DNA from: Patescibacteria group bacterium | GTDB taxonomy: Bacteria > Patescibacteriota > Patescibacteriia > UBA10025 > JAHIVO01 | NCBI GenBank assembly: GCA_043808365.1 | Contig: JAZDEZ010000016.1 | Coordinates: forward strand, 1 to 53,146 | Direction of reading: 5' to 3' | Length of the DNA stretch: 53,146 nt | Part shown: one piece after another, positions 5,640 to 10,218 of the stretch | How positions within the stretch are numbered: the stretch's first letter is position 1 | Layout of the letters: every line of letters starts with the position of its first letter | Program-made: the position numbers and the translations under genes | The notes under the pieces: model-generated | What the model saw: only the letters and a program-made list of their open reading frames with translations | The model's database searches: none | Told to the model about the DNA's origin: nothing

Positions 5640-6526
5640 GGGACAATGATCTTTAATTGTTTTGGTAAAATTCGTATTGAGTGTTTTTTTCCCGGCGGCA
5701 GTATTTCCCCATCCACATGCGCGGACAGTCCGCAGTCAGACTCTATCTCCACCTTGCAACCGGTGTACATATGCACTTCCGGCATGCTCAAATGCGTCCC
5801 TTTTAAAAACTTAGGCAGATTACGCAGCGCGTACCAACGGCCGGTCTTCTCGACCAGGCAAACGTCAAATTGCCCATCGTCAATCTTTGCCATCGGCGTG
5901 ACACGGAATCCGCCGCCGTAGCTCGTACCATTGCAGGTAGCCACTAAAAATAATGGGCCATTATATATTTCCCGTCCGTCAATAGTCACGCGCGCCTGCT
6001 GGAAACGGTATGTGACTAATGTCCTGAGTACGGCGATTAAATAAGCCCAAAATCCTCCGAAAAATTTCAAATACTGCCTGACCCGGCCGGCCGCTTCGCC
6101 GTCAAACCCGATACCGATGCCATTTATAAAATAGCGATTACCGTCTACTTGCCCCAGGTCAATAGTCTTGAGAGTAGCCGACTTAAGTATTTCCAGACCC
6201 TTCTTTGCGTTTTTTGACAAGCCAATGGTGAGGGCAAAATCATTGCCAGACCCCGCAGGGAGAATGCCTAAAATCGCGCGTGAACCGATGATGCCAGTTA
6301 CCACTTCATTGACCGTGCCATCGCCGCCGACGGCCACAATCACTTCATACTTTCCGGCAGCCTGGCGAGACAGCGTAACCGCCTCACCCGGACCGTTTGT
6401 GATGACTGTTTCAAATGTCCAACCCTGTGCGCGGCAAAAAGACTGAATCTGGCCGATAGCATGCATCTGCTTGCCATTGCCGGCAATGGGGTTGAGGATG
6501 AAGTAATACTTGGCATACCTTGTCAT
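5636..6526 (-). CDS. YegS/diacylglycerol kinase family lipid kinase
   Basis: NPIAG, GGDGTVNEV, PAGSGNDFA, YGGG, DDG and VDGE motifs. Confidence 0.92.
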   Translation of the reverse strand: MTRYAKYYFILNPIAGNGKQMHAIGQIQSFCRAQGWTFETVITNGPGEAVTLSRQAAGKYEVIVAVGGDGTVNEVVTGIIGSRAILGILPAGSGNDFALTIGLSKNAKKGLEILKSATLKTIDLGQVDGNRYFINGIGIGFDGEAAGRVRQYLKFFGGFWAYLIAVLRTLVTYRFQQARVTIDGREIYNGPLFLVATCNGTSYGGGFRVTPMAKIDDGQFDVCLVEKTGRWYALRNLPKFLKGTHLSMPEVHMYTGCKVEIESDCGLSAHVDGEILPPGKKHSIRILPKQLKIIVP

Positions 6527-6587
6527 AGACTAAGTATAGGCCAAATCAAACAGGTTGATAAGAAATAAAAGCATCTTTTATAAATGG

Positions 6588-6740
6588 CTAATTTCTTCAG
6601 CCAGAGGCTGATCCGCCTATGGCGGAAATTGCTAATTCCTAATTTCTAATGAATATCTCATTCCCGAATGTCCAATTGACCATTGAATCATTGGTTATTG
6701 ATACGTTATTTGTAATTTTGGATTTGATATTTTGGATTTG
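6588..6740. repeat. 7-nt-periodic AT-rich palindromic element with an embedded CAGCCAGAGGCTGA/TCCGCC..GGCGGA doublet
   Basis: AATTTCT/AATTCCT-type units, then ATTG..-type inverse units; homologous to 23086, 32924, 33508 and 51616. Confidence 0.7.
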
Positions 6741-6779
6741 TTTCGTGCTTCGAAATACGGATGTCGGATCAGGGGTTGT

Positions 6780-6945
6780 ATCGTATCCGGCATATATAAT
6801 GCCCTAGCACGCTATACCAAGTAGCTTCATTTTTGAGTACGTATACTTCGCACTATCCCAGATCGTAATCTGAAGATATTCTGGAATGTATAAATACTGG
6901 ATTCGGTAGTCCCGACGATACGTCGGGACGTATTCACCTACTACC
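6780..6945 (-). ncRNA. Candidate structured non-coding RNA (unknown family)
   Basis: Extended -10 TGaTAAAAT (6952-6960) lies 7 nt upstream; 5' GGTAG/CTACC hairpin; long closing stem; two internal stems capped by UACG loops. Confidence 0.4.
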
Positions 6946-6971
6946 ATTCTTATTTTATCAGAAAAAAATAA

Positions 6972-7016
6972 ACCCTGCATCCATCATTCGCATGTTGCGA
7001 AGACGAGGTGCAGGGT
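6972..7016 (-). terminator. Long hairpin/terminator downstream of the putative DGR target
   Basis: ACCCTGCA...TGCAGGGT with inner TTCGCA/TGCGAA, followed by TTATTTTTTT on the minus strand. Confidence 0.7.
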
Positions 7017-7119
7017 CATACGTTTGTCCAAGGACTAAAGCCGCGCCTGCTTCGCCCATGCAAAGCATGGCGGGCGGGCCAAGGGTCTAAGAAGACTAAA
7101 GGTTAGAAGCCCAAAGGAC

Positions 7120-7773
7120 TTATTTGCTACTTGCGAAGCGAACCGCAGGATCGTTGTCATGCCAGTCGTTGCCGAGCCAGCCCCAGCCCAGCACCACCTC
7201 GCCGTCGCTCACATACAGATACGGGACGAGGAGGCCGCCATCATTGCGGTTCAGCACGACCGACTTCCAGAAGTAAACGACCTTATTGCCGAATGCTTTC
7301 TTGAAAGCGGCGACCCCCAGTTTTTGAATGGCCAGGGCATCTTGCAGGTTTCCGCAGGACTCGAGCATGTTGTTCTTCTTGAGATGGTCGTAGATGACTT
7401 TGTCGGTGGTCACACCGCCGTTTTTCTGCTTATCGTGCAGCCACAGCGACACGTCCTTAGCCAAGTCATACTCGGCAAGTCCTGTGCATTCCAGCTCGGG
7501 ATGCATGACCTTGCCCACCCAGTCGGGATAAACAGGTCGGATCAAGCGGTCTACATGGACGACGGTACTGATAGAAGTTTCCTCCTTCGGTCCGGCAAGC
7601 CCCATAATCAGTTTCGTAAATCCGGTTTGGAGTTCCCAGCCACGATGCACGACACGCTGCAACTGCGCTTCATCGAGTCCACAGTCGTCAAGCGCGATCC
7701 CGCATGTTTGCCGAATGATCTCACGACCTTTCCGGCTCTCGGATGCGATCAATGTTTTTAACATCGCCATCAT
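7120..7773 (-). CDS. Putative diversity-generating retroelement (DGR) target protein with C-terminal variable region
   Basis: C-terminus NRNDGGLLVPYLYVSDGEVVLGWGWLGNDWHDNDPAVRFAS: fixed hydrophobic scaffold alternating with NNC/NNT codons, as expected from mutated AAC/AAT template codons; AAGGAGG SD. Confidence 0.65.
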   Translation of the reverse strand: MMAMLKTLIASESRKGREIIRQTCGIALDDCGLDEAQLQRVVHRGWELQTGFTKLIMGLAGPKEETSISTVVHVDRLIRPVYPDWVGKVMHPELECTGLAEYDLAKDVSLWLHDKQKNGGVTTDKVIYDHLKKNNMLESCGNLQDALAIQKLGVAAFKKAFGNKVVYFWKSVVLNRNDGGLLVPYLYVSDGEVVLGWGWLGNDWHDNDPAVRFASSK

Positions 7774-7839
7774 CCTCCTTCTTGAATTGAGGTTATTACC
7801 TGACTACCACCCTTCGACTTCGCTCAGGGTAAACTCATG

Positions 7840-7964
7840 ATAGCCCTAGCAAACAAACTCCTACATTTAAGAGCCTATTTGCTAGGGCTATTTTAGATAT
7901 ACGCAAGTAGCTGTTAAGGTACTAAATAACAGGGCATATTAGCATGGGATAGCGGTTTTGTCAA
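7840..7964 (-). promoter_or_regulatory. Sigma70 promoter and 14-bp leader inverted repeat of the 7120-7773 gene
   Basis: TTGACA (7959-7964)-17 nt-TAATAT (7936-7941); perfect IR ATAGCCCTAGCAAA (7840-7853)/TTTGCTAGGGCTAT (7878-7891). Confidence 0.7.
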
Positions 7965-8054
7965 GCCTCCGGGGAGGGCGCCAACCCTAAAAAGACGATA
8001 TTTCATCGTTTCTTTGCCCTCTGCCCGCTTGTGCCTCGCATGGCAGGCGAGTGC

Positions 8055-8394
8055 TGGCTGCGAGACCTGCCCCGCCCTACTTTAATATATTTAATTAATT
8101 GTGGCGGGGGAACCAGGATTAACGGATTCAGCCCGCCCCGCCTGCTTCGCGCATGCGCGATCCTCTTCTATTCTCCGAGGCTTGGAATCGAACCAAGATT
8201 GCATGATTCAGAGTCATGCGTCCTACCGTTAGACGACCTCGGAGAGCAGCAGAGGAATTGGTTGTTTGATATTAGTTATAATTAAGGGCGGCGAAGCGGG
8301 CCGGGGAGTCCGTCGTCCTACCATTCCCGCCCAAAGGGTGGGTCCGCCTCTGGCGGAAGACCTGCCCTGAGCGAAGTCGAAGGGCGATCTCGCA
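8055..8394 (-). pseudogene. Full-length tRNA-Gln(CTG) relic interrupted four times; the intact tRNA lies inside one insert
   Basis: Removing 8070-8109, 8132-8306, 8326-8357 and 8361-8384 gives TGCGAGA TC GTCT AATGGT AGGAC G ACGGA CTCTGAA TCCGT TAAT CCTGG TTC-----CAGG TCTCGCA G CCA. Confidence 0.85.
8173..8243 (-). tRNA. tRNA-Gln(CTG), intact
   Basis: Acceptor TCCGAGG/CCTCGGA, anticodon arm CATGA-CT CTG AA-TCATG, T-arm CTTGG TTCGATT CCAAG. Confidence 0.95.
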
Positions 8395-8430
8395 GCGCTG
8401 TGTTCAATTATCAAATAATATATCCTACAT

Positions 8431-8593
8431 TGTATGATTCAGCCTGCCCCGTCAATTTCGAACGAAGTGAGAAATTATACGGGGAGTCATGCGTCCCCGC
8501 CTCTCCGGCGGGTCGCCGATGAGGCGACTACAATTCTTCAGTCCGCCTCTGGCGGAAGACTTACCCTGAGCGAAGTCGAAGGGCGATCTCGCA
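8431..8593 (-). pseudogene. Second tRNA-Gln relic (5' two-thirds) with four palindromic inserts
   Basis: Removing 8443-8484, 8496-8527, 8536-8556 and 8560-8583 gives TGCGAGATCGTCTAATTGTAGGACGCATGACTCTGAATCATACA. Confidence 0.8.
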
Positions 8594-8606
8594 ATAAGGT
8601 CAGCCA

Positions 8607-8635
8607 ATATTACAAAGAATCCTGAAATTTATCAA
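8607..8635 (-). promoter_or_regulatory. Sigma70 promoter of the tRNA-Gln locus
   Basis: TTGATA-17 nt-TAATAT just upstream of the relic 5' end at 8593. Confidence 0.6.
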
Positions 8636-8649
8636 GTTTCTATAATCCA

Positions 8650-10218
8650 TTAATCTTTTGCCGCGGTTTCGCCAAACACCTGCATCGCCTGGTCCCACAG
8701 GCTTCCTCCCTGCTCTGTTTGATGCGCCGGTTGAAGCTTGCTGAATTCATCGCTAGGCAGCACTACAGTTGCCAGTGCCAACTTTTCTCCGAAAAGGTGT
8801 GCACAAGCATCTTCAATAATCGAACGGATTGAGCGTTCTTTCAAGCGTTCAGCGTGTAATTTATGCTGGAACGCTATGATCAGCTGGTCCTTATCAAATT
8901 TATAGGGATGGCCCATTTTAAGGGATAATCCGGCTGAATGGTTGTGCGTCCTGACTGACGTAACGAGTTCTGCCCATGCTGATTTGATGGAATCCATGCT
9001 GACTTTACCAGGAGGCTTATTGCCAGTGGCCGGTTTTGGATGCTTGGCCGGTACGTCGGGAGTCTCGATGCTTTTTTGGCCGGACGGATTACCGGGCGGC
9101 GTCCGCTTATCATCCGGACGAGCTTCCTGATCCGTACACAATTCAACAACTGCCAATTCCAGCGGCAGCTGGACAATCTGGCTGTACCGCGCATCCCGCG
9201 ACTTGGCCATGAGCTTTTCGATGATCTCAACGAGCCGACGGGCTGTTACCTGGGCAGTGAGCTCTACCACCTCTATCATGAGATCTTTCCCCATTTCCAG
9301 ATTTTCCAGCTCATCTTTTATTGAGCTGATTTTATACACCAGCGCCTTTCTAAAAAATTCAATGGCATCCTGCGAAAAATCCACAATATTAATCCCCTCG
9401 TCAACGAGGCGATTGATCACCAGGAGTCCGGCGGCCGCATCGCGGACTACCAGCGATCGGTAAAATTCCATGATCAAACTAAAGTTTGAGTGAGGGATAA
9501 TGAGTGACGACACTTCTGCCGTAATATGCTTCTCCCCGAGCGAAAGCAATTGCCCGAGGAGCACTTCGGCGTCGCGGACCGAGCCTTCGGCGCGCCGGGC
9601 GACCGAACGCAACACGTCTTCGTCCGCATCCGCCTTTTCCTCCTTGGCGATAAACCGCATGCGGGTCAGCATGTCATCGATGCGCGCGCGCTTGAAATCA
9701 AACCGTTGGCAACGGGAGATGATCGTCTCTGGCACGCGATGGATCTCCGTCGTCGCCATAATGAAGATAACGTGGTCCGGCGGTTCTTCCAGCGTTTTGA
9801 GGAGCGCATTAAACGCCGAAATAGACAGCATATGCACTTCATCGATAATAAACACTTTATACGCGAAGCGCTGCGGCGTGAAACGGGAATTTTCGATAAT
9901 ATTTTCCCTGACATTGTCCACGCCGGTATGCGAAGCGGCGTCAATCTCGATCAAATCAAGCGCCCGTCCGGCGGCAATTTCCCTGCAGGCATCGCATGTA
10001 CCGCATGGCTCGCTCTTTTTTTTATCCGTACAATTCACGGCCTTTGCCATCAGCCTGGCCATAGTCGTCTTGCCGACCCCGCGCGGACCGGAAAACAGGT
10101 ACGCATGGGCAATGCGCTTATGTTCGATCTCGTTTTGGAGCGTGACGACAATCGGCCGCTGGCCAACTACCTCAGCAAAGCGCTGCGGACGGTATTTTCT
10201 GTATATTGCCTGTGACAT
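8650..10218 (-). CDS. dnaX: DNA polymerase III subunit gamma/tau
   Basis: YRKYRP, GPRGVGKTT, Zn-binding cysteines, EIDAAS, IIDEVHML, SRCQ; start reassigned to MSQAIY at 10218. Confidence 0.96.
   Translation of the reverse strand: MSQAIYRKYRPQRFAEVVGQRPIVVTLQNEIEHKRIAHAYLFSGPRGVGKTTMARLMAKAVNCTDKKKSEPCGTCDACREIAAGRALDLIEIDAASHTGVDNVRENIIENSRFTPQRFAYKVFIIDEVHMLSISAFNALLKTLEEPPDHVIFIMATTEIHRVPETIISRCQRFDFKRARIDDMLTRMRFIAKEEKADADEDVLRSVARRAEGSVRDAEVLLGQLLSLGEKHITAEVSSLIIPHSNFSLIMEFYRSLVVRDAAAGLLVINRLVDEGINIVDFSQDAIEFFRKALVYKISSIKDELENLEMGKDLMIEVVELTAQVTARRLVEIIEKLMAKSRDARYSQIVQLPLELAVVELCTDQEARPDDKRTPPGNPSGQKSIETPDVPAKHPKPATGNKPPGKVSMDSIKSAWAELVTSVRTHNHSAGLSLKMGHPYKFDKDQLIIAFQHKLHAERLKERSIRSIIEDACAHLFGEKLALATVVLPSDEFSKLQPAHQTEQGGSLWDQAMQVFGETAAKD

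What the first reader, a model, noticed from the sequence alone, without database searches (positions are those of the whole stretch)
7120..7773. Probable remote DGR target gene with no RT or template repeat nearby
Seen: the last ~40 codons (about 7135-7255) alternate scaffold residues with NNY codons (GGC TGG GGC TGG CTC GGC AAC GAC TGG CAT GAC AAC GAT CCT GCG). They are followed by a short CTTAG/CTTTG-periodic tract and a strong hairpin. The gene has its own promoter, 14-bp leader IR and AAGGAGG SD. Established: DGRs mutate template adenines, mostly in AAY codons, into a C-terminal variable region, and CPR DGRs often have dispersed targets. Inference: diversified in trans; the template should read roughly ...CTG AAC TGG AAC TGG CTC GAC AAC GAC TGG AAT GAC AAC AAT CCT GCG.
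Basis: partly seen in the sequence, partly recalled or inferred. Interest (0 to 1): 0.7.

Follow-up and report, generated by a model that had tools for sequence, protein, structure and literature searches.

The report
Orphaned DGR target gene, template lost
This small gene of an ultra-small bacterium belongs to a family whose tips are rewritten by a known mutagenic retroelement, but at this locus the template and enzyme genes that should follow it are missing, so it is most likely a frozen relic.

Summary
Window 7120-7773(-) ends in a 127-nt adenine-poor block (7131-7257) of conserved scaffold codons alternating with NNY codons.

The gene belongs to a large Patescibacteria family (883 cluster representatives). 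In eight related cassettes, members are textbook DGR targets: 11-21 mismatches at template adenines and 0-5 elsewhere. The usual layout is target, ~330-nt spacer with a structured leader RNA, TR, Avd(-), RT(+).

The window keeps the promoter region, target, VR, GC-rich VR end, terminator and an intact leader. Homology to the other cassettes stops at about 6772, exactly where the TR begins in them.

The assembly is 88% complete. It holds one DGR RT and one Avd, on contig C1, and that TR is not cognate: 51 non-adenine mismatches in 133 nt. No cognate TR was found anywhere.

The closest species-level homologue (L004) has its TR cut in the middle, an independent truncation.

Best reading: a beheaded cis cassette with a frozen VR (0.7). 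A live trans target is possible only if a cognate TR lies in unassembled DNA (~0.1). No sequencing run holds this organism, so hypervariability was untestable.

The scan has reported orphaned VRs on other DNA before.

The parts
7120..7764 (-). DGR variable-protein (target) gene, 214 aa from the conserved Met. The open frame reaches 7773, giving 217 aa.
   Evidence: ORF. No Pfam or NCBIfam hit. Family of 141 proteins at E<=1e-3 and 883 cluster representatives. AF2 pLDDT is 85.9 for the full length and 93.1 for residues 62-217. Start codon reasoning rests.
7131..7257 (-). Variable region (VR), 127 nt, encoding VLNRNDGGLLVPYLYVSDGEVVLGWGWLGNDWHDNDPAVRFA
   Evidence: Gapless 127-nt match to the L006 TR (102 identical) and the L038 TR (99 identical), with mismatches enriched at TR adenines. 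20 A in 127 nt. The same span is the TR/VR homology segment in 8 related cassettes.
7131..7149 (-). GC-rich VR 3' end (CCTGCGGTTCGCTTCGCAA), the IMH-like boundary where VR and TR homology ends in related cassettes
   Evidence: Conserved in window, L004 and L006. In L006 the VR and TR are identical up to ...CGCAA and then diverge. Its function is inferred from the BPP-1 IMH (abstract of PMC3240598).
7085..7121 (-). Post-stop CTTAG/CTTTG-type tract with two short hairpins: AAGTCC-TTT-GGGCTT at 7121-7107 and GTCT-TCTT-AGAC at 7096-7085
   Evidence: A comparable tract with a GGGTC-loop-GACCC hairpin follows the VR in many homologous cassettes. A role as a homing hairpin is inference only.
7043..7080 (-).
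   Evidence: Absent from L004, L006 and C1 in the 4-way alignment. Look-alikes of 82-91% over 22-45 nt at C1 2873-2916, C7, C5 and window 8135-8156. Fold shown.
6962..7016 (-). Intrinsic terminator of the target gene: stem ACCCTGCA...TGCAGGGT followed by a T-run
   Evidence: Fold. An equivalent hairpin plus T-run sits at the same place in the 30-sequence alignment. The consensus scanner did not list it, as its loop is too long for that scanner.
6952..6960 (-). Extended -10-like box TGATAAAAT, about 7 nt ahead of the conserved leader start
   Evidence: A TGnTAnAAT-like box occupies the same column in most of the 30 aligned cassettes. Promoter function is inferred.
6772..6945 (-). Structured 'leader' RNA element of this DGR clade. 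It is intact here, but in other cassettes it runs directly into the TR.
   Evidence: nhmmer E 1.1e-50; one of only two copies in the genome. 41 pairs, 97.7% of cells paired against 37-45% when partners are slid, and 139 both-side changes against 14-30. No Rfam hit.
6527..6771 (.). DNA beyond the breakpoint. It is unrelated to TR, Avd or RT and is made of dispersed short repeats plus native intergenic sequence.
   Evidence: 4-way alignment. Repeats of 6583-6734 occur at many genome sites. 6632-6677 matches the dgk-tRNA spacer of a congener.
7774..7970 (-). Upstream region: SD 7780-7774, leader inverted repeat 7840-7891, two sigma-70-like sites 7917-7890 and 7964-7936
   Evidence: 7966-7905 and 7811-7739 are conserved with the region upstream of the C1 paralogue.
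8172..8244 (-). tRNA-Gln(CTG) bordering the insertion. Degenerate tRNA-Gln fragments lie at 8055-8069 and 8110-8131.

Best explanation
The gene encodes a variable protein of the Patescibacteria (CPR) clade of diversity-generating retroelements. Its last 42 codons are a VR that was written by adenine-mutagenic retrohoming from a template repeat.

In intact cassettes of this clade the order is: promoter, target gene with 3' VR, terminator, a second promoter, a ~170-nt structured leader RNA, TR, Avd on the opposite strand, RT.

At this locus everything up to the last base of the leader is present. The TR, Avd and RT are gone, and the DNA continues into ordinary intergenic repeats.

The genome's one assembled DGR (contig C1) carries a template of a different length and sequence, so it cannot rewrite this VR by the normal homology-guided route.

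The VR is therefore most likely frozen. The gene still looks functional: intact frame, SD, terminator and a confident fold. It would make one fixed variant of a small, probably C-type-lectin-like binding protein.

Shown: family membership, cassette anatomy, the truncation point, and absence of a cognate template from the assembly. Inferred: that the VR was once rewritten at or before arrival at this locus, that it is no longer rewritten, and that the protein binds a ligand.
For: (1) Family and mechanism. L006 carries a 62%-identical homologue followed by TR, Avd(-) and RT(+). That RT is 68% identical to the own-genome C1 RT. Eight distinct homologous cassettes have TR/VR segments of 106-129 nt with 11-21 mismatches at TR adenines and 0-5 elsewhere; five of the eight have 0.

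(2) Truncation. Window 7588-6774(-) aligns to L006 8496-9271, and window 7042-6773(-) aligns to C1 963-1226. In the 4-way alignment the window leaves the others right after ...GATACAACCCC, where they enter the TR.

(3) The spacer motif belongs to the cassette. Of 37 metagenome loci found with it, 19 have at least 1.8 kb downstream. Of those 19, 14 have Avd plus a full RT, 2 have Avd only and 3 have neither.

(4) No cognate template. Adenine-tolerant gapless scans of all 24 contigs, in both directions, found none. tblastn finds only the C1 TR (E 1.8e-4). The best gapless match to the C1 TR has 59 identities, 23 TR-A mismatches and 51 other mismatches in 133 nt. The genome has one Avd, one DGR-type RT and two leader copies. 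The second RT, on C15, is retron-like.

(5) Independent decay in the closest species-level homologue. L004 (77% identity) keeps only the first ~106 nt of its TR, which is cut by a NUDIX gene. L038 (66% identity) keeps the TR but has no Avd or RT within 3.5 kb, and shows 5 non-A mismatches.

(6) The window VR fits the L004 TR remnant: 7 of 17 A sites differ against 6 of 52 other sites.

(7) The locus is an insertion. Three same-genus genomes have dgk, a ~70-aa ORF, tRNA-Gln and dnaX, with no target gene.
Against: The assembly is only 87.8% complete in 24 contigs, so a cognate TR could lie in missing DNA.

No sequencing run holds this organism: the best share of words was 0.06, and only relatives' contigs could be laid. 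Present-day hypervariability was therefore neither shown nor excluded.

The gene, its leader RNA and both promoter-like boxes are intact, which would also fit a module still in use.

A DGR RT and Avd are present in the same cell, and trans action of avd-TR-brt is established for BPP-1 (passages of PMC5758913).

It cannot be told whether the TR, Avd and RT were lost here or whether only the truncated piece ever arrived.
Confidence: 0.7

Rival explanations
1. Live remote target. The VR is still rewritten in trans by the C1 RT and Avd, or by another DGR, using a cognate template that lies in the unassembled ~12% of the genome.
For: DGR-type RT and Avd are present on C1. The C1 TR has no cognate VR in the assembly either, so at least one TR/VR partner may be missing from the assembly. 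The target gene, the GC-rich VR end and the post-VR tract are intact. Non-adjacent targets are documented for other DGR lineages (PMC5758913).
Against: No cognate TR in 1.03 Mb. The locus is a truncated cis cassette, not a stand-alone VR. In this clade every TR seen sits directly behind a leader, and the genome has only two leaders, at C1 and in the window. [quoted passage not shown] Relatives show the same kind of decay.
Confidence: 0.1
2. Population or assembly artefact. Full cassettes with TR-Avd-RT exist at this locus in the sampled population. The contig shows a deletion variant, or it was mis-joined across the TR/VR repeat.
For: TR and VR are ~80-90% identical repeats about 450 nt apart in intact cassettes, which is a known source of assembly trouble. 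No reads were available to check the junction.
Against: The junction is not inside the TR/VR repeat. It lies about 15-20 nt upstream of where that homology would begin. The DNA beyond it carries sequence shared with the native dgk-tRNA spacer of a congener, and it continues into dgk. A mis-join would have to skip 1.7 kb and land in the correct neighbourhood.
Confidence: 0.1
3. The C1 DGR rewrites this VR despite the mismatch, for example by using only the last few shared bases (TCGCAA) and the internal TGGCTCG...GACTGG stretch.
For: The window C-terminus is the best match in the genome to the C1 TR pseudo-peptide (E 8.9e-6). About 30 nt around TGGCTCGACAATGACTGG align with mostly A-site differences.
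Against: If the C1 TR had been copied in, the VR would have its length and non-A bases. Instead there are indels and 51 non-A mismatches, including the whole GC-rich end.
Confidence: 0.03
4. Not DGR-related at this gene. The family simply has a fast-evolving C-terminal loop region, and DGRs captured only some members.
For: Five species genomes with a family member were searched as whole genomes. Four of them (G042-G045) show no cognate or TR-like copy, and one (G043) shows no RT at all.
Against: The window locus itself carries the DGR-specific leader RNA and spacer. Its VR matches real TRs gaplessly over 127 nt, with an A-site bias. Its A content is VR-like.
Confidence: 0.04

Closest known systems
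CPR/Patescibacteria DGRs: the 'CPR set' of Wu et al. 2018 (PMC5758913, passages read) and DGR clade 2 of Roux et al. 2021 (PMC8144416, passages read)
   Same: Host phylum by the names sources give to homologues. A small target with no recognisable transmembrane or Pfam domain, as those papers describe for CPR targets. A C-terminal VR. The RT and Avd of the related cassettes.
   Different: This copy has no TR, Avd or RT. In the passages I read, neither paper describes the spacer/leader RNA or the Avd-on-opposite-strand layout of this sub-clade. Their supplements were not opened.
Bordetella phage BPP-1 DGR (mtd-VR, IMH, hairpin, avd, TR, Sp, brt); Guo et al. 2011, PMC3240598 (abstract read)
   Same: VR at the 3' end of the target gene. 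A GC-rich end of homology. Short inverted repeats just downstream. Adenine-specific TR-to-VR differences in the related cassettes.
   Different: Here Avd is antisense, between TR and RT. A ~170-nt covarying RNA lies 5' of the TR, whereas in BPP-1 the known structured spacer lies 3' of the TR. The window copy lacks the donor half entirely, like an engineered recipient-only construct.
Non-adjacent or remote DGR targets, e.g. Treponema denticola, as defined in Wu et al. 2018
   Same: A VR-bearing gene far from the genome's DGR RT.
   Different: The definition requires only A-to-N differences to a TR in the genome. That was tested here and not met.
Solved DGR variable proteins Mtd (1yu0) and TvpA (2y3c), C-type lectin fold
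   Same: The domain model aligns to both over 115 and 130 residues. The hit list is dominated by C-type-lectin-like domains. The VR maps to the last three strands, as expected for this fold (recalled).
RT-10 and other 'RT' RNA motifs near reverse-transcriptase genes (Weinberg et al. 2017, PMC5737381, passages read)
   Same: A structured RNA that is part of a DGR cassette.
   Different: [quoted passage not shown] The leader here lies upstream of the TR, and it gave no Rfam match at E<=1.

Membership tests
DGR variable (target) gene | Homology to genes that are demonstrable targets, i.e. adjacent to TR, Avd and RT with A-only TR/VR differences | tested here: met
   L006 and 7 further cassettes: 11-21 A-site mismatches and 0-5 others. 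The window protein is 48-66% identical to several of these targets.
DGR variable (target) gene | A template repeat in the same genome that differs from the VR essentially only at its adenines | tested here: not met
   None in 24 contigs. The only TR, on C1, has 51 non-A mismatches in 133 nt plus indels. The assembly is 87.8% complete.
DGR variable (target) gene | DGR-type RT, with Avd, in the genome | tested here: met
   C1 RT: PF00078 at 77 bits, with LGNLTSQ in its sequence; that this motif marks DGR RTs is recalled. It is 68% identical to the L006 DGR RT. Avd hits NF033474 at 66 bits, below the cut-off of 80. Both are on another contig.
DGR variable (target) gene | GC-rich end of VR (IMH) followed by a hairpin-forming inverted repeat | tested here: inconclusive
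   The GC-rich end is conserved with L004 and L006. Only 4-6-bp hairpins lie downstream in the window. The stronger hairpin is a repeat insertion.
DGR variable (target) gene | Hypervariability of the VR within a population | not testable with these tools
   No run holds the organism. Only contigs of relatives could be laid.
C-type lectin (CLec) fold of DGR variable proteins | Structural similarity of the VR-bearing domain to CLec or FGE-type domains | tested here: inconclusive
Remote (non-adjacent) DGR target in the sense of Wu et al. 2018 | Only A-to-N differences to a TR elsewhere in the genome, and not part of another DGR | tested here: not met
   Definition from the passage. There is no such TR. 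The gene is part of the remnant of its own cassette.
Known Rfam RNA families (for the leader element) | Match to a curated covariance model | tested here: not met
   cmscan of 6400-8700 at E<=1 gave only tRNA-Gln and three chance-level hits elsewhere.

The most novel reading that the evidence does not exclude
The locus is not dead but half of a modular system.

In this CPR DGR clade the covarying leader RNA, which always sits immediately 5' of the TR, would be the element that the RT-Avd complex recognises. It would also be a recombination hinge at which [target-leader] and [TR-Avd-RT] halves are exchanged between cassettes.

That would explain two things in one genome: a cassette with a non-cognate 'swapped' template (C1), and a target with a promoter-equipped, intact, TR-less leader (this window).

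The window module could then regain a template by recombination, or it could still be served by a cognate TR in unassembled DNA.
Probability: 0.1. Interest if true: 0.6.

Novelty: new member of a known kind. Interest (0 to 1): 0.3.

Why it matters
It is a worked example showing that a DGR-looking variable tail with an RT elsewhere in the genome is not thereby a remote target. The test is a cognate template, and here the neighbourhood shows a cassette cut off at the template. This matters for censuses of DGR activity and of 'remote targets' in candidate-phyla bacteria.

Decay looks recurrent. It was seen independently in L004, in L038, and in 5 of 19 metagenome loci with enough flank.

As a by-product, the comparison exposes a strongly covarying RNA element directly upstream of the template in this DGR clade. 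It is not in Rfam. It is a concrete candidate for the RNA part that the RT-Avd complex needs in these uncultured bacteria.

Tried and rejected
Pfam and NCBIfam scans of the protein gave no family.

A BLAST-type DNA search of the own genome with 7100-7300 found only itself. I replaced it with adenine-tolerant gapless scans.

The first related-loci run, with the 34-sequence alignment, was rejected as too diverse. A 12-sequence alignment worked.

Sequencing runs: five runs held at most 0.06 of the sampled words. Laying four of them showed only relatives' contigs and dispersed repeats, so there is no population data, no habitat claim and no variability test.

Foldseek against the PDB gave nothing at E<=1e-3 for either model. 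VIA-align 2 on the full model was swamped by the N-terminal helices, so I folded the domain alone.

The idea that the C1 template is the window's lost template, moved by recombination, is rejected.

The idea that the GC-rich hairpin is the DGR homing hairpin is rejected, because it is a window-only insertion with look-alikes elsewhere in the genome.

I looked for a cognate TR for homologues in five other genomes, near their RTs and genome-wide by family profile. None was found beyond the L004 remnant. These are draft MAGs of unknown completeness, so this is weak evidence.

Paul et al. 2017 (Nat Microbiol 2:17045) is not held. What I say of it is recalled, or taken from the reference list of PMC8144416. 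The supplements of the DGR surveys were not opened, and they may list this target family or cassette layout.

Two script errors were fixed.

Full report
**The object.** Window 7120-7773 on the minus strand is an open frame of 217 codons. An AAGGAGG box at 7780-7774 abuts the first ATG. The Met conserved in the family is the fourth residue. In the paralogous cassette on contig C1 the first ATG is out of frame. The likely start is therefore 7764, giving 214 aa. The protein has no Pfam or NCBIfam family.

**The genome.** The window is contig C16 of a 1.03-Mb, 24-contig assembly estimated 87.8% complete. A Pfam RVT_1 search finds two RTs, on C1 and C15. The C15 enzyme scores best against retron RT models.

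The C1 enzyme is DGR-type. It carries LGNLTSQ (that this motif marks DGR RTs is recalled). It is 68% identical to the RT of a cassette with a perfect TR/VR pair. It lies next to an antisense four-helix-bundle gene that hits the NCBIfam Avd model at 66 bits, below the cut-off of 80. It follows an AAC-rich pseudo-ORF, which is a template repeat, and a 218-aa paralogue of the window protein.

My own alignments, made before I read that note, agree: the C1 TR matches neither the adjacent gene nor any other place in the assembly.

**Is the window block a VR?** The family is large. There are 141 proteins at E<=1e-3 in the 90% clusters and 883 representatives in the 50% clusters, 576 of them at E<=1e-10. 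All those named by a source are Patescibacteria hypotheticals.

In a 34-sequence alignment the last ~45 residues show a fixed scaffold, WKSVV..R..G.L.VP.L....G.VV..W.WL...W....PA.RFAS, with variable residues between. Against the two closest homologues, the VR differs at 14 of 42 and 13 of 42 residues. The rest of the domain differs at 16 of 108 and 18 of 110.

One of six species-level loci (L006, a Kerfeldbacteria MAG) has a 62%-identical homologue followed by a TR, Avd(-) and RT(+). Its TR/VR differences fall at adenines only. With seven further cassettes from metagenomes, the TR/VR segments are 106-129 nt with 11-21 adenine-site mismatches and 0-5 others; five of the eight have 0.

The window block 7131-7257 matches the L006 and L038 templates without gaps over 127 nt, with 102 and 99 identities. 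Mismatches are enriched about five-fold at template adenines (p 1e-3 and 3e-4). The block has 20 A, as VRs do (11-22), whereas TRs have 29-36.

**The cassette and where it stops.** blastn and a 4-way MAFFT alignment of window (minus strand), L004, L006 and C1 show shared features in this order: an upstream region with the SD, the gene, the GC-rich VR end, a CTTAG/CTTTG-type tract, a terminator hairpin with T-run, and a very conserved ~170-nt block that ends ...ATGCCGAATACGATACAA(C/T)CC. In L004, L006 and C1 the TR follows within about 20 nt. In the window, unrelated AT-rich DNA follows from about 6771.

A 31-letter pattern from the conserved block found 37 metagenome loci. Nineteen of them have at least 1.8 kb downstream. 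Of these, 14 have Avd(-) and a full RT(+) at the expected distances, 2 have Avd only (L030, L055) and 3 have neither (L038, L045, L063). L046, with 1.5 kb, has a broken RT. Several loci are copies of the same element from different samples, so these are not independent counts. The block is thus part of the donor side of the cassette.

In the own genome an nhmmer profile of the block finds exactly two copies, at C1 and in the window. tblastn finds one Avd and one DGR-type RT.

**No cognate template.** I slid 50-nt pieces of the window VR over all contigs on both strands, accepting a mismatch only where the genome has A. Only the VR itself was found. The reverse scan with the C1 TR found only the TR itself. 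tblastn with the protein finds only the C1 TR pseudo-ORF (E 1.8e-4).

The best gapless placement of the VR on the C1 TR has 59 identities, 23 mismatches at template adenines and 51 at other bases in 133 nt. The GC-rich ends differ in length. A VR written from that template would carry its non-adenine bases, and this one does not.

**Relatives decay in the same way.** The closest species-level homologue (L004, 77% identical, an Uhrbacteria MAG) keeps the leader and the first ~106 nt of a TR. The TR is then cut off by a NUDIX gene on the other strand. This is a different breakpoint from the window's, hence an independent event.

The window VR fits that TR remnant well: 7 of 17 adenine sites differ against 6 of 52 other sites over 69 nt.

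L038 (66% identical) keeps the TR but has no Avd or RT within 3.5 kb, and has 5 non-adenine mismatches.

In five other draft genomes with a family member, RTs are present in four. No cognate or TR-like copy was found near the RTs or genome-wide, apart from the L004 remnant.

The scan's notebook lists several orphaned-VR cases in other genomes. I did not test those.

**Locus history.** Three same-genus genomes (79-83% complete) lack the gene. They have dgk, a ~70-aa ORF, tRNA-Gln and dnaX at the syntenic place. The window instead has the cassette remnant between dgk and tRNA-Gln, plus degenerate tRNA-Gln fragments at 8055-8069 and 8110-8131.

Across 41 genomes searched (40 relatives plus this genome), 3 have a match, this genome among them. 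The piece was therefore probably acquired. Whether it arrived whole or already truncated cannot be told.

The DNA beyond the breakpoint (6583-6734) consists of short repeats found at many places in the genome.

The CTTAG/CTTTG tract is conserved in other cassettes. It contains short hairpins, and a GGGTC-loop-GACCC hairpin recurs in many loci. By analogy with the BPP-1 element immediately downstream of the VR (abstract of PMC3240598), it may help homing, but that is inference.

The 'strong hairpin' at about 7080-7043 is absent from the other three aligned cassettes, and it has 82-91% look-alikes elsewhere in the genome.

The leader inverted repeat at 7840-7891 is real. The two promoter-like sites are not more than shuffles give, although the region is conserved with C1.

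**The protein.** AlphaFold2 gives pLDDT 85.9 for the whole protein: two N-terminal helices, then an alpha/beta domain. Residues 62-217 alone give pLDDT 93.1 and pTM 0.88. Foldseek finds nothing.

There is no signal peptide or membrane helix by eye. This agrees with what Roux et al. say of CPR targets (PMC8144416, passage).

**The leader RNA (side result).** Thirty distinct sequences of the block were aligned. RNAalifold predicts 41 pairs, 20 of them with compensatory changes. On that structure:
- 97.7% of cells pair, against 37-45% when partners are slid by 1-3 columns.
- 139 cells changed on both sides, against 14-30 in the slid controls.
- The covariation score is 0.451, against at most 0.136 in the slid controls, and 0 of 500 shuffles reach it.

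Helices 6 and 7 overlap the search pattern and are invariant by selection. The support comes from helices 1-5. Frequent G-U pairs fix the strand as that of the target gene and TR.

A TGnTAnAAT-like box about 7 nt upstream suggests that the RNA starts at GGTAGTAGG. No Rfam family matches. The RT-10 motif of Weinberg et al. lies on the other side of the TR in BPP-1 (PMC5737381).

Two literature searches turned up no description of such an element: (diversity-generating retroelement, covariation, template repeat, RNA structure). That is not proof that none exists.

**Verdict.** Its mechanistic claim of present-day diversification in trans is not supported.

- Beheaded cis cassette with a frozen VR: 0.7.
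- Live trans target with an unassembled cognate TR: 0.1.
- Population or assembly variant: 0.1.
- Remaining readings together: under 0.1.

It is a new member of a known kind. Interest is modest, raised a little by the leader RNA.

Noticed in passing
window 6772-6945 (-); also G000 C1 1014-1230, L004 1140-1318, L006 9095-9276 and 26 metagenome loci: A ~170-nt strongly covarying RNA element lies directly upstream of the template repeat in this CPR DGR clade, preceded by an extended -10-like box. 97.7% of cells pair, against 37-45% in slid controls. It has no Rfam match. The window keeps an intact copy although the TR is gone.
   Followed up: yes
G000 contig C1 1-3000 (L002): The genome's only DGR cassette has a TR with no cognate VR in the assembly, including the adjacent 218-aa paralogue (indels and non-A mismatches). 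Its RT reading frame runs on through a GC-rich repeat element at 2873-2958.
   Followed up: partly
window 8055-8131 and 8417-8442, beside tRNA-Gln 8172-8244 (-): Degenerate partial copies of tRNA-Gln sit next to the functional gene. In three congeners the same dgk-tRNA-Gln interval holds a ~70-aa ORF instead of the DGR remnant. This looks like a repeatedly used insertion spot.
   Followed up: partly
window 8342-8394 and 8541-8593; 7810-7832; 6594-6630: Dispersed short GC-rich palindromic repeats, which read as ...FDFAQGK... in spurious ORFs, are scattered around the locus and over many contigs of the genome. One of this kind (7043-7080) has inserted into the cassette spacer.
   Followed up: partly
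window 7186-7213 (-) against L004 904-933: The window VR and the L004 VR share the same derived bases (…GTG AGC GAC GGC GAG…) at three sites where the L004 TR remnant has A. They differ at A sites on both sides. This is odd if each homing event rewrites the VR from its 3' end. It may be chance, selection, or later change in the remnant.
   Followed up: no
L004 1391-1801 (-): In the closest species-level homologue a NUDIX hydrolase gene ends inside the template repeat, cutting it after about 106 nt. No Avd or RT is present on the 4.2-kb contig.
   Followed up: partly
P0123 (792 aa) and P0165 (658 aa): Some family members carry three tandem copies of the ~150-aa domain in one protein.
   Followed up: no
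G000 contig C15 42580-43569 (L003): A retron-type reverse transcriptase gene. The best NCBIfam hit is the retron St85 RT model at 161 bits, below its cut-off. Its ncRNA and effector were not looked for.
   Followed up: no
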